From the NCBI RefSeq assembly GCF_053078305.1, contig NZ_CP166879.1: a DNA stretch of 64,000 nucleotides; one strand, given 5' to 3'. The position numbers were made by a program. Shown in pieces: positions 30,401 through 39,400 of the stretch. The stretch's first letter is position 1. Every line of letters begins with the position of its first letter.

Positions 30401-33400
30401 GAAAATAAAGAGGCGTTACAGATTTCCCGTTTCCTCGCCGCCATTAATGGCCTGATGGGGGATAAACACGACGACATGGTGGCGGATGATATGGAAAACC
30501 GCCAGTCGTATGATGCACCGATGGCGCTGGATAGCGATATTCGCCAGCGCTTAGAGCTGCTGATTTCGCGTTTTCCGCTATAACCGGAGCAATGATGTCA
30601 TCTCGTTTGATTATTGCGCTGATTATCATGCTCTTAGCCCCGGGTGTGCAGGCACACAATTTCGTCACTGGCAAAACGGTTACCCCTGTTTATATTCAGG
30701 AAGGCGGCGAGCTGCTTCTGAATAGCGACGACGAAATTCACTACCAAAAGTGGAACAGCACACAATTGGCGGGAAAAGTCCGCATTATCCAGTATATCGC
30801 CGGGCGTAAGTCAGCGAAGAAGAAGAACTCACTATTAATTAAAGCGGTTGAAGCGGCAAACTTTCCGCAGGATCGTTTTCAGCCCACCACCATTGTGAAC
30901 ACCGATGATGCCATCTTTGGTACTGGCTATTTTGTTGTTGGCAAAATCGAAAAAAATAAACGCCGCTATCCGTGGGCGCAATTCGTTATCGACGGCAATG
31001 GACAGGGACGCGTTGCCTGGCGCTTGCCGGAGCAGAGTTCAACCATTCTGGTGCTGAATAAAGCCGGGCAAATTCAGTGGGCAAAGGACGGCAGCCTGAC
31101 GCCGGTAGAGGTAGATCATGTCATTGCGCTGGCGCAGAAACTGATCAATGAATAAAAAATTCAAAGGATTGAGGGCGTTAGTGAGATGAAGCTGGTTGAA
31201 CACTACATCATGCGTGGTACGCGCCGTCTGGTGCTGATTATCGTCGGTTTTCTGATCTTTATTTTCGCCAGCTACTCCGCACAGCGTTATCTGACCGAAG
31301 CGGCAAATGGGACATTAGCTCTTGATGTTGTGCTGGATATCGTTTTCTACAAAGTGCTGATTGCACTGGAGATGTTGTTACCTGTTGGTCTGTATGTGTC
31401 AGTTGGCGTGACGCTAGGGCAGATGTATACCGACTCGGAAATTACCGCTATCTCTGCGGCGGGGGGCAGTCCGGGACGCTTGTACAAAGCTGTTCTTTAT
31501 CTGGCGATACCGCTAAGTATTTTTGTCACCCTTCTGTCGATGTATGGTCGTCCGTGGGCTTATGCGCAGATTTATCAACTGGAGCAGCAGTCGCAGTCGG
31601 AGCTGGATGTTCGCCAGTTGCGGGCAAAGAAATTTAACACTAACGATAACGGACGAATGATCCTTTCGCAGACGGTTGATCAGGATAATAATCGCCTGAC
31701 TGACGCGCTGATTTATACTTCTACTGCCAATCGAACCCGCATTTTCCGCGCCCGTTCGGTTGATGTGGTTGACCCATCTCCCGAGAAACCGACCGTTATG
31801 TTGCACAACGGCACCGCCTATCTTCTCGATCATCAGGGGCGTGACGACAACGAACAGATCTACCGTAATCTGCAATTACATCTGAATCCGCTGGATCAAA
31901 GCCCTAACGTCAAACGCAAAGCAAAATCGGTCACGGAGCTGGCGCGCTCCGTCTTTCCGGCCGATCATGCCGAACTGCAATGGCGACAAAGCCGTGGCCT
32001 GACCGCATTGTTGATGGCGCTGCTGGCCATTTCATTAAGTCGGGTAAAACCGCGGCAAGGGCGATTTTCAACGTTATTGCCACTGACGTTGCTGTTTGTT
32101 GCCATTTTTTATGGCGGCGACGTCTGCCGTACGCTGGTGGCTAACGGCGCGATTCCCCTCATTCCTGGTTTGTGGTTAGTGCCCGGACTCATGCTAATGG
32201 GCCTGCTGATGCTGGTCGCACGCGACTTCTCTTTGCTGCAGAAATTTTCCCGATGAATGTTTTCAGTCGCTATTTAATCCGTCATCTCTTTCTCGGTTTT
32301 GCCGCCGCCGCAGGGTTATTGCTGCCGCTTTTTACTACCTTCAACCTGATTAACGAACTGGATGATGTCAGCCCGGGCGGTTATCGCTGGACTCAGGCGG
32401 TGCTGGTGGTGCTGATGACCTTACCGCGTACACTGGTCGAACTTTCGCCGTTTATCGCATTATTGGGAGGGATTGTTGGCCTGGGGCAGTTATCGAAAAA
32501 CAGTGAGCTTACCGCCATTCGCAGCACGGGGTTTTCTATCTTCCGTATTGCACTGGTGGCGCTGGTTGCCGGGATATTGTGGACTGTTTCGTTAGGCGCG
32601 ATAGATGAGTGGGTGGCGTCGCCATTGCAGCAACAGGCGCTGCAAATCAAATCGACCGCCACCGCGTTAGGGGAGGACGATGACATTACCGGCAATATGC
32701 TGTGGGCCAGGCGCGGCAATGAATTTGTGACGGTGAAATCGCTGAACGAGCAGGGCCAGCCGGTGGGCGTGGAGATATTTCATTATCGCGACGATCTCTC
32801 GCTCGAATCCTACATTTATGCACGCAGTGCCACCATTAAAGACGACAAAATGTGGATCCTGCATGGTGTGAATCATAAAAAATGGCTTAACGGTAAAGAA
32901 ACGCTGGACACATCAGATAATCTTGCCTGGCAATCGGCCTTCACCAGTATGGATCTTGAAGAGCTATCGATGCCGGGGAATACTTTTTCTGTCCGTCAGC
33001 TTAATCATTACATCCATTATTTGCAGGAAACCGGGCAACCCAGCAGCGAATACCGCCTTGCACTGTGGGAAAAACTGGGGCAACCCATCCTGACCCTGGC
33101 GATGATTTTGCTGGCTGTGCCGTTTACCTTTAGTGCCCCGCGCTCGCCAGGGATGGGTAGCCGTCTCGCTGTAGGTGTCATCGTTGGCTTACTCACCTGG
33201 ATCAGCTATCAAATCATGGTCAATCTGGGATTGCTATTTGCGTTAAGCGCACCTGTTACCGCGCTCGGTTTACCGATAGCGTTCGTGCTGGTGGCGTTGA
33301 GCCTGGTGTATTGGTATGACAGACAACATTAAACCCGCCGTGGCGCAACACCACGGCGGGCTCACATTACTGCTTCAGAGTAGCAAATGCCTGAATGATG

Positions 33401-36400: not shown

Positions 36401-39400
36401 CGGAGGCTTCATCAGAGAAGCTGACAGCCAGCGCATTTTCTGCCAGTCCGTAGCACGGCATGAAAGTTTTATTGTCAAAGTTAACCTGACGGAAACATTC
36501 AGCGAATTGATGGAGTTGTTCTGCGGAGATGGGTTCTGCACCAATACCAGCGACGCGCCAGCAGGAAAGATCCAGTTCAGCGAGATCTTTTTCATTCACG
36601 CGGCGCTGGCACAATTCATAGCCAAACGGCGGCGCAACGGAAACGGTGCCGCGATTTTTACTGATCAATTTAAGCCATTGCAGAGGACGCATGGCAAAAT
36701 CCTGAGTGCGCAAATAATCTACTGAAAGTTGCGTGGCGACCGGGGTCAGGAGAAAGCCGACCAGTCCCATATCATGGTAGAAAGGCAGCCAGGAGACGCA
36801 GCGGTCGCCAGGGCGTAATTTAATGCCGTCGTGGCTTATAGCACGTAGATTAGCCATCACTTCGCGATGGGTGATAATGACGCCACGGGGAAAACGGGTG
36901 CTGCCGGAGGTGTACTGGAGGTAGGCGATATCGTTCGGAACTGGACGCTGGAGCGCAACATCAGCTTCCGGTAATGCCTTAAACCAGGCGTGGCTTAATA
37001 CATGCAATTCGGGGTTGTTATGCGTGGCGGCATTGACCAGCGGCAACCACTCATCACCAGTGATAATGGCAGCGGGCTGGCAACTTGCCAGTAAACCCTG
37101 CAGTTTGGCGCTCCAGGAATCCCGCTGACCGACGCCCATTGGAATCGCCAACGGGACGGCGACTAAGCCGGCATACTGGCAGGAAAAAAAAGCCTCTACG
37201 AACCCGCTACTGGTTTCGGCAATCAGCGCCACGCGATCGCCTTTTTTCAGGTTCAGCGATAACAACCGCTTCGCACCAGCTTCGGCACGTGCTTTTAACG
37301 TCTGATATTCCAGTTGATCTTCAAGTTGGCAACGTCTGTCATAAAAATTCATTCCGGCGCTACTCAGAGCGGCGTAGTCCAAAGCATCAACCAGCGTTGG
37401 AAAATCGGCATAGCGCATAGGTAGGGAATGCGTAAAGATTTTATTAGACATATACACCACGAAAAAATTGGATATCCAAAATAAAATGACAATAATGCGG
37501 TGGATTATATAGGTATAAAAGATAAATGAGATAGTATTTTCATTGGTGTGATATTGAACATTGATTAAAATAATGCTTTAAATCTTAACTCTGTTTATTG
37601 TGAATAATATTTAATTTATGAATATATTAAGATAATGCCCTGGTGGGTCGCATTAAATCCACAATAGTCATGTTGATCGGCTAACGGTGGCGCTGGTGTA
37701 TCGTAATTATTCATAAATATTATTTTATTTTTCCTTATATTCATTGCGTGGATAGTTAAGGTACCGTCCGTTGCTGTTTATTTTCAGCATTAATTATTTG
37801 TTATCCACTAAGCTATGGAATGCGATCTGCTGATGATTCAAATTGAAAAAGTAACTAATAAAAATGACCTTAAGGCATTTATCGCTTTTCCGTCATCACT
37901 TTATCCCGACGATCCAAACTGGATACCCCCTTTATTCATTGAACGCAACGAGCATTTGTCTGTGAAAAATCCGGGGACGGACCATATCATCTGGCAGGCG
38001 TGGGTGGCAAAAATAGCCGGGCAGATAGTTGGGCGTATTACCGCGCAAATCGATACCTTACACCGCGAGCGTTACGGCGAAGATACCGGTCATTTCGGCA
38101 TGATTGACGGCATTGATGATCCGCAGGTTTTTGCCGCGTTGTTTGGCGCAGCGGAAGCGTGGTTGAAGTCACAAGGTGCAAGTAAGATCAGCGGTCCTTT
38201 CAGCCTGAATATCAATCAGGAAAGCGGATTACTGATTGAAGGTTTCGATACACCACCCTGTGCGATGATGCCACACGGCAAACCGTGGTATGCCGTGCAT
38301 ATTGAACAATTGGGTTATCACAAAGGCATTGATTTACTGGCGTGGTGGATGCAGCGAACCGATCTCACTTTCTCTCCGGCGCTAAAAAAACTGATGGATC
38401 AGGTGCGCAAAAAGGTGACCATTCGCTGCATCAATCGCCAGCGGTTTGCCGAAGAGATGCAGATCCTGCGTGAGATTTTCAACTCTGGCTGGCAGCACAA
38501 CTGGGGATTTGTGCCGTTTACCGAACATGAATTCGCGACCATGGGCGACCAACTTAAATATCTGGTGCCGGACGATATGATCTACATCGCTGAGATTGAT
38601 TCTGCACCCTGCGCGTTTATTGTCGGCTTGCCGAACATCAACGAGGCGATTGCCGATCTGAACGGATCGCTCTTTCCCTTCGGCTGGGCAAAATTGCTGT
38701 GGCGTTTGAAAGTCAGCGGTGTGCGAACTGCGCGAGTGCCGCTGATGGGCGTGCGGGACGAGTATCAGTTCAGCCGCATCGGCCCGGTGATTGCGCTGTT
38801 ATTGATTGAAGCCTTACGCGATCCGTTTGCCCGCCGGAAGATCGATGCGCTGGAGATGTCATGGATCCTCGAAACCAATACAGGCATGAATAACATGCTG
38901 GAACGCATTGGGGCGGAGCCGTACAAGCGTTACCGATTGTATGAAAAGCAGATTTAATACCAGCTAACTCAGGTTCATCTCCAGCGGCACCGCCGAGCGA
39001 ATCAAATGGTGGCCTTCCAGCTCGATATCGTGGAGATTCTTTTTCACGGTCCGCACATGATCGCGTGCTGCGCGCTGGGCGACGTGCGGCAGCCGCTGCA
39101 ACACCGCGTTGTAGATCCGCGCATGCTGGCGATCGATCTGCTTTTTTTGCTGTGGTCGATGGTAGAGATTATTTACGCTGGCAAACACTGAATTAAACAT
39201 CAGGTCAGTCAATGATTGCAGCGTAAACACCAGCACCTGATTGTGAGAAGCCTGACAAATGGCGAGATGGAAAGCGTGATCCAACTGCGCATGTTCGATC
39301 AGCGAAATCTCTTTGTTGTTCTCACTGGCGGCGAGCATTTTTTCATAACAGCGGGTTATCACAACAAAATCAGCCTGCGTTCCCAGCGTTGCCGCCAGCC

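What the first reader, a model, noticed from the sequence alone, without database searches (positions are those of the whole stretch)
33367..38957. Gene set matching the bacterial ceramide/sphingolipid biosynthesis toolkit (alpha-oxoamine synthase + ACP + SDR reductase + acyl-AMP ligase + YghO N-acyltransferase candidate)
A tightly coupled minus-strand operon (overlapping stop/start codons) encodes a fatty acyl-AMP ligase-type adenylating enzyme (YLQYTSGSTRFPRGVIITH), an NAD(P)-dependent epimerase/dehydratase-family reductase (GATGFIG, YANSK), a dedicated acyl carrier protein (DLGLESI) and a PLP-dependent alpha-oxoamine synthase of the serine palmitoyltransferase/BioF/Kbl family (GTFSKS lysine). 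The divergently transcribed 380-aa YghO is a candidate N-acyltransferase. This is the same five-function combination described for bacterial ceramide synthesis in Caulobacter (Spt, ACP, acyl-ACP synthetase, CerR reductase, bCerS N-acyltransferase). E. coli is not known to make sphingolipids. The window has no IS5 here, and as far as I recall K-12 has an IS5 and a yghO pseudogene at this position, which would explain why the locus is unstudied in the model strain. Alternatives are an N-acyl amino acid or other aminolipid product, or a CqsA-like alpha-hydroxyketone signal.
Basis: partly seen in the sequence, partly recalled or inferred. Interest (0 to 1): 0.88.

Follow-up and report, generated by a model that had tools for sequence, protein, structure and literature searches.

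The report
Known E. coli ceramide (sphingolipid) gene cluster
The five genes are real and do match the bacterial ceramide-synthesis toolkit, but this E. coli locus is already annotated as such and three of its enzymes have already been characterised in strain BL21(DE3), so the finding is correct but not new.

Summary
A minus-strand operon encodes aasR (fatty acyl-AMP ligase), an SDR reductase, acpR and spt. The stop and start codons overlap as TAATG and ATGA. yghO is transcribed divergently across a 396-bp spacer of 30% GC.

The synthase passes NCBI's curated serine palmitoyltransferase model (599.5 bits, cut-off 500) and falls below the BioF, Kbl and CqsA cut-offs. YghO has no Pfam hit, but it models confidently as a tandem GNAT acyltransferase. 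It is 43% identical over its full length to the Caulobacter protein at the bCerS (CC_1154) position.

It is not new. RefSeq already names the gene spt. Padilla-Gómez et al. 2022 characterised the BL21(DE3) Spt, AcpR and AasR, which are 99.2%, 100% and 98.6% identical to those here. That paper also lists ECD_02852 and yghO as the reductase and N-acyltransferase.

The operon is in 4067 of 5426 complete E. coli genomes. K-12 lost it next to an IS5.

What remains open is the native product. The five genes sit in a conserved 13-gene island. Its other eight genes are second LptF and LptG copies, YtfJ, a CHAD-fold protein, the flippase-family YghQ and three P-loop paralogs, YghR, YghS and YghT. They differ from Caulobacter's head-group genes.

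The parts
33367..34539 (-). spt: serine palmitoyltransferase (PLP-dependent alpha-oxoamine synthase), 390 aa
   Evidence: NF047599 equivalog 599.5 bits, above the 500 cut-off. Best PDB relatives are S. paucimobilis and S. wittichii SPT, E about 1e-111, with H159/D231/H234/K265/R390 equivalents conserved. 99.2% identical to BL21(DE3) ECD_02854, which was assayed with L-[14C]serine and palmitoyl-AcpR.
34539..34787 (-). acpR: dedicated acyl carrier protein, 82 aa; its stop overlaps the spt start (TAATG)
   Evidence: ACP models match at E 1e-8 to 1e-9; PF00550. 100% identical to BL21(DE3) ECD_02853, which was shown to carry 4'-phosphopantetheine.
34819..35733 (-). cerR/epi: NAD(P)-dependent extended-SDR reductase, 304 aa (putative 3-keto reductase)
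   Evidence: GATGFIG and YANSK motifs; Epimerase/3Beta_HSD/NAD_binding Pfam hits. 34% identical to the Caulobacter protein at the CC_1164 position (published 34%, E 7e-38). Same position between aasR and acpR as in Caulobacter.
35730..37460 (-). aasR: fatty acyl-AMP ligase-type acyl-AcpR synthetase (576 aa from the GTG at 37460; RefSeq start is the ATG at 37418, 562 aa); its stop overlaps the cerR start (ATGA)
   Evidence: NF006624 fatty acyl-AMP ligase 874.8 bits, above the 600 cut-off. 98.6% identical to BL21(DE3) ECD_02851, which supports 3-oxo-sphinganine formation with its cognate AcpR.
37419..37814 (.). 396-bp AT-rich (29.8% GC) divergent control region between aasR and yghO
   Evidence: Sequence and GC content. 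No Rfam family matches. Promoter-like matches are not above chance.
37815..38957 (+). yghO: bCerS-type tandem-GNAT N-acyltransferase, 380 aa (putative bacterial ceramide synthase)
   Evidence: No Pfam or NCBIfam hit. AF2 model pLDDT 96.5. Foldseek top hits are tandem GNAT proteins, E 1e-15. 43% identity over 376 aa to the Caulobacter protein at the CC_1154 position (published 44%, E 1e-107). Sits in an acp-spt-yghO operon in an unrelated genome.
33330..33364 (-). Terminator-like hairpin (16 pairs, 10 G-C) directly after the spt stop, between the convergent spt and lptG2
31186..33332 (+). Second copies of lptF (31186-32256) and lptG (32253-33332): candidate sphingolipid extraction permeases
   Evidence: TIGR04407 319 bits and TIGR04408 306 bits. 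Linked to spt in many gamma- and beta-proteobacterial loci. Caulobacter's cluster has LptF2/LptG2, which its authors propose for sphingolipid transport.
30592..31155 (+). YtfJ-family protein with a hydrophobic N-terminus, 187 aa
   Evidence: TIGR01626 211 bits. Conserved within the island in Enterobacterales.
29759..30583 (+). 274-aa protein of unknown function with a CHAD-like all-helical fold
28410..29759 (+). yghQ: MOP/Polysacc_synt flippase-family membrane protein, 449 aa (truncated in K-12)
   Evidence: PF01943/PF13440; NF007773 weak match. 26% identical to the protein encoded next to aasR in Caulobacter. K-12 truncation.
25995..28364 (.). yghT (25995-26687, -), yghS (26861-27574, +), yghR (27606-28364, +): three paralogous P-loop, thymidylate-kinase-like proteins
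   Evidence: 32-36% mutual identity, with Walker A GxDGxGKST and conserved DRYPQ and RKPDH motifs. Only remote thymidylate-kinase similarity, E about 1e-5. Co-located with spt in Enterobacterales and Dyella.

Best explanation
This is the proteobacterial ('Rhodobacteria-type') dihydroceramide biosynthesis cluster, already described for E. coli B strains.

Proposed mechanism:
1. AasR adenylates a free long-chain fatty acid and loads it onto the phosphopantetheine arm of the dedicated carrier AcpR.
2. Spt (PLP bound to the Lys of GTFSKS) condenses acyl-AcpR with L-serine, with loss of CO2, to give 3-oxo-sphinganine.
3. YghO, a tandem-GNAT homologue of Caulobacter bCerS, adds the amide-linked acyl chain.
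4. The extended-SDR reductase, a CerR homologue, reduces the 3-keto group to give dihydroceramide. The order of steps 3 and 4 is disputed even in Caulobacter.

Steps 1 and 2 have been shown experimentally for the BL21(DE3) proteins, which are 98.6-100% identical to those here. Steps 3 and 4 are inferred from homology, fold and synteny.

The lipid is probably then modified and moved to the outer membrane by the eight other genes of the conserved 13-gene island: YghR/S/T, the CHAD-like protein, YghQ, YtfJ and the second LptF/LptG pair. This step is inference only. Under ordinary laboratory growth the operon appears to be silent or weakly expressed.
For: Sequence and profile evidence:
- Curated profile hits above cut-off for Spt (599.5 against 500) and for the fatty acyl-AMP ligase (874.8 against 600).
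- SPT structures are by far the closest solved relatives, and the catalytic residues are conserved.
- The window proteins are 97.4-100% identical to those of BL21(DE3).

Published biochemistry on the BL21(DE3) proteins (PMC9386255):
- AcpR carries 4'-phosphopantetheine.
- Spt prefers palmitoyl-AcpR over palmitoyl-CoA.
- Sphinganine-like and ceramide-like spots appear in the BL21 host, 'possibly by intrinsic enzymes' ECD_02852 and ECD_02850.

YghO and the reductase:
- YghO has a tandem GNAT fold and is 43-44% identical to the Caulobacter bCerS gene product.
- The reductase is 34% identical to the CerR gene product.

Conservation:
- The gene order aasR-cerR-acpR-spt is conserved from Caulobacter to E. 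coli, and yghO lies near spt in 47 of 80 sampled genomes.
- An acp-spt-yghO operon occurs in an unrelated genome.
- The operon is intact in 4067 of 5426 complete E. coli genomes at 95-99% identity.
- All 13 island genes are 64-80% identical in Serratia despite a rearranged order and different flanking genes.
Against: - I found no report of a sphingolipid extracted from unmodified E. coli.
- BL21(DE3) carrying empty vectors shows no 3-oxo-sphinganine spot even though it has the chromosomal cluster.
- YghO and the reductase from E. coli have not been assayed.
- The published product identifications for the E. coli enzymes rest on TLC co-migration.
- The residue equivalent to S. paucimobilis SPT Arg378 is Leu here. 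The enzyme with this Leu is nevertheless active.
- The acyl donor and the substrate of YghO are unknown.
Confidence: 0.85

Rival explanations
1. The genes are intact but the pathway is effectively cryptic in E. coli. On this reading it is a horizontally acquired, H-NS-silenced island that makes no lipid of physiological importance and is being lost lineage by lineage.
For: No sphingoid product is seen in BL21 with empty vectors. The control region is 30% GC. In K-12, yghS is H-NS-bound in two ChIP data sets and rises 3.1-fold when SlyA is over-expressed. The island has been lost independently: in K-12 next to an IS5, and in O157:H7 493/89 next to IS30/IS3/IS66 elements and an efa1/lifA island. 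One strain carries a heavily frameshifted copy.
Against: Three quarters of complete E. coli genomes keep the whole operon at 95-99% identity. All 13 genes remain open and 51-88% identical across Pseudocitrobacter, Hafnia, Serratia and Rosenbergiella, even though the gene order has been shuffled. That pattern indicates continued selection. H-NS silencing usually means conditional expression, not loss of function.
Confidence: 0.12
2. The synthase condenses a different amino acid or a different acyl chain, and YghO acylates that product. The end product would then be another aminolipid (an N-acyl amino-ketone or amino-alcohol) and not a canonical ceramide.
For: The residue equivalent to S. paucimobilis SPT Arg378 is Leu in the E. 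coli, Serratia and L009 enzymes. The E. coli products were identified only by TLC co-migration, and other unidentified SPT-dependent compounds were seen. The chain length selected by AasR is unknown.
Against: The 99.2%-identical enzyme incorporated L-[14C]serine into a product migrating with 3-oxo-sphinganine. It passes the curated SPT equivalog threshold. All five partners match the Caulobacter ceramide genes one for one.
Confidence: 0.06
3. The synthase is a CqsA-like autoinducer synthase, or a BioF/Kbl paralogue, making an alpha-hydroxyketone signal or a vitamin or amino-acid intermediate.
For: It belongs to the same alpha-oxoamine synthase superfamily, with 120-330-bit similarity to these families.
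Against: It scores far below every curated cut-off: CqsA 219.7 against 428, BioF 332.4 against 426, Kbl 297.1 against 460. In the PDB ranking CqsA comes last among alpha-oxoamine synthases at 124 bits. Published activity is on serine plus acyl-AcpR.
Confidence: 0.01

Closest known systems
E. coli BL21(DE3) ECD_02850-ECD_02854 (yghO, aasR, epi, acpR, spt), Padilla-Gómez et al. 2022, Front Microbiol 13:961041 (PMC9386255)
   Same: It is the same locus. The gene order is identical and the flanks are the same, with yghQ, the hypothetical gene, ytfJ, lptF and lptG on one side and yghO on the other. Proteins are 97.4-100% identical. Spt, AcpR and AasR were characterised, and epi and yghO were proposed as reductase and N-acyltransferase.
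   Different: Only strain-level substitutions, for example 3 of 390 residues in Spt. Nothing here goes beyond what that paper says about the five genes.
Caulobacter crescentus ceramide genes: spt CC_1162, acpR CC_1163, cerR CC_1164, aasR CC_1165, bcerS CC_1154
   Same: One-to-one homologues at 53%, 43%, 34%, 46% and 43% identity, with the same aasR-cerR-acpR-spt order. A flippase-family gene and second LptF/LptG copies are present in both clusters.
   Different: In E. coli yghO is directly divergent from aasR; in Caulobacter it lies about 8 kb away. E. coli has no detectable homologues, within the island, of the Caulobacter genes lying between spt and bcerS or of the 253-aa gene after bcerS. 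The paper places CC_1161, CC_1160, CC_1159, CC_1158, CC_1153 and CC_1152 in those positions. None of the 13 island genes was identified as an LptC. E. coli has YghR/S/T, a CHAD-like protein and YtfJ instead. The E. coli Spt matches NCBI's 'beta-proteobacterial' SPT model, not the alpha one.
Sphingomonas paucimobilis and S. wittichii serine palmitoyltransferases (PDB 2JG2, 2X8U)
   Same: 47% identity over the whole length. The PLP lysine, the His/Asp/His triad and Arg390 are conserved.
   Different: The residue equivalent to Arg378 is Leu. The E. coli enzyme prefers acyl-AcpR over acyl-CoA.
Tandem GNAT acyltransferases (clavulanate-pathway tandem GNAT protein 2WPW/2WPX, MAB_4324 7Q3A, glucosamine N-acetyltransferase 5KF1, MshD 1OZP, Eis)
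   Same: YghO has the same two-GNAT-domain architecture (Foldseek E 1e-15 to 1e-9, TM 0.5-0.6).
   Different: Only 9-14% sequence identity. No Pfam GNAT model detects YghO. The presumed substrate is a long-chain sphingoid base, not a sugar or an aminoglycoside.

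Membership tests
Bacterial serine palmitoyltransferase (Spt) | Scores above the curated whole-protein cut-off of an SPT equivalog model, and below the cut-offs of sister families | tested here: met
   NF047599 599.5 bits against 500. BioF 332.4 against 426, Kbl 297.1 against 460, CqsA 219.7 against 428, ALAS 217.4 against 338.6.
Bacterial serine palmitoyltransferase (Spt) | Fold-type I PLP enzyme with the Schiff-base lysine and the His/Asp/His PLP-binding residues of the alpha-oxoamine synthases | tested here: met
   PF00155. SHASIYD, DEAHS, GTFSKS and LLRCS align with H159, D231/H234, K265 and R390 of 2JG2.
Bacterial serine palmitoyltransferase (Spt) | Condenses L-serine with a long-chain acyl thioester to give 3-ketodihydrosphingosine | not testable with these tools
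   Published for the 99.2%-identical BL21(DE3) protein, using L-[14C]serine plus palmitoyl-AcpR with TLC identification.
AcpR (specialised sphingolipid ACP) | Small PP-binding protein encoded directly upstream of spt and carrying 4'-phosphopantetheine | tested here: met
   PF00550 and ACP models. Its stop overlaps the spt start. The prosthetic group was shown for the 100%-identical ECD_02853; it was not tested here.
AasR (acyl-AcpR synthetase, fatty acyl-AMP ligase type) | Adenylate-forming enzyme of the fatty acyl-AMP ligase subfamily, linked to acpR-spt, that loads AcpR and not CoA | tested here: met
   NF006624 874.8 bits against 600. Same operon. The BL21 protein is 98.6% identical, and the paper reports that it acylates its cognate E. 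coli AcpR but not the Caulobacter AcpR. The exclusion of CoA was shown for the Caulobacter enzyme; it was not tested for E. coli and not here.
CerR (bacterial ceramide reductase) | Extended-SDR protein with Rossmann GxxGxxG and catalytic YxxxK, homologous to Caulobacter CC_1164 and encoded between aasR and acpR | tested here: met
   GATGFIG and YANSK. 34% identity over 291 aa, in the same position in the operon. Published E 7e-38.
CerR (bacterial ceramide reductase) | Reduces the 3-keto group of 3-ketosphinganine or oxo-ceramide | not testable with these tools
   Not assayed for the E. coli protein. The only hint is sphinganine-like spots in the BL21 host.
bCerS (bacterial ceramide synthase) | GNAT-superfamily acyltransferase fold | tested here: met
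   AF2 pLDDT 96.5. Tandem GNAT hits at E 1e-15. The profile search also finds weak GNAT hits. Sequence models alone fail.
bCerS (bacterial ceramide synthase) | Full-length homology to Caulobacter CC_1154 and genomic association with spt | tested here: met
   43.4% identity over 376 aa, E 1e-94. Published 44%, E 1e-107. A yghO homologue lies within 10 kb of spt in 47 of 80 genomes. An acp-spt-yghO operon occurs elsewhere.
bCerS (bacterial ceramide synthase) | N-acylates a sphingoid base | not testable with these tools
   Not assayed for YghO.
CqsA-type alpha-hydroxyketone autoinducer synthase | Scores above the curated cut-off of NF005526 | tested here: not met
   219.7 bits against 428. CqsA structures reach only 124 bits.
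Caulobacter-type ceramide phosphoglycerate (CPG/CPG2) pathway | Cluster carries the Caulobacter head-group genes: the ceramide kinase CC_1160, the Tam41-like CC_1161, the CDP-alcohol transferase CC_1159 and the nucleotidyltransferases CC_1152/1153 | tested here: not met
   No Caulobacter ORF from the stretch between spt and bcerS, nor the 253-aa ORF after bcerS, finds a homologue in any of the 7 Enterobacterales loci at E below 1e-8 and at least 50% coverage. Only the region within 10 kb of spt was searched, not whole genomes.

The most novel reading that the evidence does not exclude
The unit of function is a 13-gene island, not five genes. In Enterobacterales, and in the xanthomonad Dyella, the ceramide core is joined to a modification and export set that differs from Caulobacter's. 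This set comprises three paralogous thymidylate-kinase-like P-loop proteins (YghR/S/T), a protein with the fold of polyphosphate-binding CHAD domains, the MOP-family flippase YghQ, YtfJ, and a second LptF/LptG pair. On this reading, about three quarters of E. coli strains can make a so far undescribed sphingolipid, probably phosphorylated, and place it in the outer membrane through a dedicated Lpt-like route. Expression would depend on conditions that relieve silencing. K-12 would have hidden this because an IS5-associated deletion removed the core genes.
Probability: 0.3. Interest if true: 0.7.

Novelty: already known. Interest (0 to 1): 0.28.

Why it matters
As stated, the finding adds nothing to the record. 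The spt gene is named in RefSeq, and the five-gene correspondence with Caulobacter, including yghO, is in print.

It still points at an open question. Most natural E. coli strains carry an intact sphingolipid pathway, yet I found no report of the lipid in unmodified cells. Its final structure, the conditions that turn it on, and its role in the outer membrane or in host interaction are all unknown.

The eight neighbouring genes conserved with the five give concrete candidates for head-group chemistry and transport. They also give a reason to study a non-K-12 strain.

Tried and rejected
- Pfam and NCBIfam scans of YghO and of the 274-aa protein returned nothing. Only structure prediction gave a fold for either.
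- A single-sequence PDB search with YghR gave nothing useful. A family profile reached only thymidylate kinases at E about 1e-5, mostly through the P-loop, so the substrate of YghR/S/T remains unknown.
- The Nature Chemical Biology paper that defined bCerS and CerR (Stankeviciute et al. 2022) is not held in the library under its DOI or PMC id. Its content is therefore cited only through later papers.
- Promoter and terminator pattern scans were at chance level overall (7 found against 7.1 expected, and 7 against 8.0). Only the long hairpin after spt stands out.
- No Rfam family matches in 25000-40000.
- I considered building a full phylogeny of the synthase against Spt, BioF, Kbl and CqsA. I dropped it because the curated cut-offs and the PDB score ranking already separate the families by more than 100 bits.
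The 80 loci are therefore a sample, not a census.
- Paper searches for later work on native E. coli sphingolipids found none. The library lacks most subscription journals, so this is weak evidence of absence.

Full report
**1. Observation**

- On the minus strand: a 390-aa alpha-oxoamine synthase (33367-34539, GTFSKS), an 82-aa carrier protein (34539-34787, DLGLESI), a 304-aa SDR (34819-35733, GATGFIG and YANSK) and a 576-aa adenylating enzyme (35730-37460, YLQYTSGSTRFPRGVIITH).
- On the plus strand: the 380-aa YghO (37815-38957), followed by glcC.

The junctions read TAATG (ACP/AOS) and ATGA (ligase/SDR), so the genes are translationally coupled. RefSeq starts the ligase at the ATG at 37418, giving 562 aa. 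A 16-pair hairpin sits directly after the spt stop. The spacer between the ligase gene and yghO is 396 bp at 29.8% GC. No IS element lies in this stretch.

**2. What the proteins are**

- **Synthase.** Among NCBI's curated models it reaches 599.5 bits on the serine palmitoyltransferase equivalog NF047599 (cut-off 500). It stays below the cut-offs for BioF, Kbl, ALAS and CqsA.
  - Among solved structures, the Sphingomonas SPTs lead at 375 bits (E 3e-111). Sphingobacterium SPT follows at 267 bits, Kbl and BioF at 170-200, and CqsA at 124.
  - The residues aligned with H159, D231, H234, K265 and R390 of 2JG2 are conserved. The Arg378 equivalent is Leu, as it also is in the Serratia enzyme and in an unrelated genome's enzyme.
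- **Ligase.** It passes the fatty acyl-AMP ligase model at 874.8 bits against a cut-off of 600.
- **Reductase.** It is an extended SDR with only weak similarity to named reductases.
- **YghO.** It has no Pfam or NCBIfam match. With 72 diverse homologues, AlphaFold gives a model of pLDDT 96.5. Foldseek places it among tandem GNAT acyltransferases at E 1e-15.

**3. It is already known**

RefSeq labels the gene 'spt: serine palmitoyltransferase' in E. coli genomes, next to 'acyl carrier protein', 'NAD-dependent epimerase/dehydratase family protein', 'fatty acyl-AMP ligase' and 'protein YghO'.

Padilla-Gómez et al. 2022 (PMC9386255) worked on this locus in BL21(DE3). They report the following.
- The ACP (ECD_02853) carries 4'-phosphopantetheine.
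- Spt prefers palmitoyl-AcpR to palmitoyl-CoA.
- Their Figure 9 lists 'epi: ECD_02852' and 'aca: yghO ECD_02850', and states that the five dihydroceramide genes are clustered only in C. crescentus and E. coli BL21.
- Their Table S2 gives 44% identity (E 1e-107) between CC_1154 and ECD_02850, and 34% (E 7e-38) between CC_1164 and ECD_02852.
- They saw sphinganine-like and ceramide-like spots in the BL21 host and attributed them, tentatively, to ECD_02852 and ECD_02850.

The proteins in the window are 99.2% (Spt), 100% (AcpR), 97.4% (reductase) and 98.6% (AasR) identical to those of BL21(DE3). My own comparison with a Caulobacter vibrioides genome reproduces the published figures: Spt 53%, AcpR 43%, reductase 34%, AasR 46% and YghO 43%. 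The aasR-reductase-acpR-spt order is the same.

**4. Distribution and the K-12 gap**

The aasR-spt operon is present at 80% coverage or more in 4067 of 5426 complete E. coli genomes, at 95-99% identity.

In a K-12 derivative, an IS5 transposase gene lies between a truncated yghQ pseudogene and yghO. Everything in between is missing, and YghO has a different N-terminus of about 13 residues.

The O157:H7 strain 493/89 lost the region independently. There the truncated yghQ abuts IS30, IS3 and IS66 elements and an efa1/lifA island.

**5. Mechanism**

Shown for near-identical proteins:
- Fatty acid passes through AasR onto AcpR to form acyl-AcpR.
- Spt condenses acyl-AcpR with L-serine to give 3-oxo-sphinganine.

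Inferred:
- N-acylation by YghO and 3-keto reduction by the SDR give dihydroceramide. The order of these two steps is unsettled even in Caulobacter.

Native production is not shown. BL21 with empty vectors has no sphingoid spot. The AT-rich control region fits conditional silencing. So does the fact that yghS in K-12 is H-NS-bound in two ChIP data sets and rises 3.1-fold on SlyA over-expression. This is a hint only.

**6. Beyond the stated coordinates**

The five genes are part of a larger conserved unit. In Serratia liquefaciens the same 13 genes are contiguous. They are yghO, aasR, the reductase gene, acpR, spt, yghT, yghS, yghR, yghQ, a 278-aa gene, ytfJ and second copies of lptF and lptG. 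The order is rearranged and the flanking genes are different. The proteins are 64-80% identical to those here.

I sampled 80 genomes around spt.
- The full set recurs in Pseudocitrobacter, Hafnia and Rosenbergiella.
- Erwinia has it partly within the sampled window.
- Dyella sedimenti has yghT/S/R upstream of the operon and yghQ plus the 274-aa gene directly after spt.
- Second LptF/LptG copies sit next to spt in many gamma- and beta-proteobacteria.

Olea-Ozuna et al. 2024 (PMC11324152) describe a 17-gene Caulobacter cluster. It contains LptC2, LptF2 and LptG2, a flippase (CC_1166) and head-group genes: CC_1161 Tam41-like, CC_1160 ceramide kinase, CC_1159 CDP-alcohol transferase, and CC_1152/1153 nucleotidyltransferases. 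The Caulobacter ORFs from the corresponding positions find no homologue in the Enterobacterales loci. Two of them (253 aa and 145 aa) do find homologues in Methyloversatilis and Salinicola.

In place of the head-group genes the enterobacterial island has the following.
- Three paralogous P-loop proteins. Only remote thymidylate-kinase similarity is detectable.
- YtfJ.

I found no paper that links these eight genes to sphingolipids in E. coli. The idea that they build and export a distinct, possibly phosphorylated, sphingolipid rests on gene association only.

**7. Verdict**

The alternative readings are excluded (CqsA, BioF, Kbl) or unlikely (another aminolipid). The finding is already known, so it scores low on novelty. 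The residual interest lies in the undetected native product and in the uncharacterised eight-gene accessory set.

Noticed in passing
window 25995-38957; L008 824-15035; L013, L012, L016, L024: The five ceramide genes belong to a 13-gene set that stays contiguous but is rearranged in Serratia, Hafnia, Pseudocitrobacter and Rosenbergiella. It is partly present in Dyella, with different flanking genes. The published E. coli comparison covers only five of the genes.
   Followed up: yes
[not shown]
   Followed up: partly
window 25995-28364: YghT, YghS and YghR are three paralogues (32-36% identical) with a Walker A motif and conserved DRYPQ and RKPDH motifs. RefSeq calls YghS and YghT 'dTMP kinase', but they score 23-31 bits against an 83-bit cut-off. 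The name is probably an over-annotation.
   Followed up: partly
window 31186-33332: The second LptF and LptG copies pass NCBI's LptF and LptG equivalog cut-offs, so RefSeq names them lptF and lptG as if they were the housekeeping LPS permeases. No LptB or LptC gene was identified among the 13 island genes.
   Followed up: partly
window 33367-34539 (Spt residue 354, Leu, in NLILPPA): The residue equivalent to Arg378 of S. paucimobilis SPT is Leu in the E. coli and Serratia enzymes and in one unrelated genome's enzyme. The protein matches NCBI's 'beta-proteobacterial' SPT model (599.5 bits), not the alpha model (428 bits against a 670 cut-off).
   Followed up: partly
L091 (O157:H7 493/89) 5911-14095; L003 (K-12 derivative) 4737-8102; L092 (strain HS-02): The island has been lost independently more than once. 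In K-12 the deletion is next to an IS5. In O157:H7 493/89 the truncated yghQ abuts IS30, IS3 and IS66 elements and an efa1/lifA island. Strain HS-02 has a copy at 86% identity that is full of frameshifts; this may reflect assembly quality.
   Followed up: partly
window 37419-37814: The divergent control region is 396 bp at 29.8% GC. In K-12 the neighbouring yghS is reported as H-NS-bound and is induced 3.1-fold by SlyA over-expression (PMC5797941). This suggests the island is silenced.
   Followed up: partly
window 37418-37460: The aasR start is ambiguous. The longest ORF starts at the GTG at 37460 (576 aa), there is an in-frame ATG at 37451, and RefSeq uses the ATG at 37418 (562 aa).
   Followed up: no
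window 28410-29759: A Keio yghQ deletion in K-12 was reported to double the chlorhexidine MIC, and yghQ picked up repeated mutations in chlorhexidine-adapted lines (PMC8170033). In K-12 yghQ is the IS5-truncated remnant, which makes those phenotypes hard to interpret.
   Followed up: no
E. coli genome search with window 33367-37460: One of the 4199 matching places for the aasR-spt operon lies on a plasmid record, not a chromosome.
   Followed up: no
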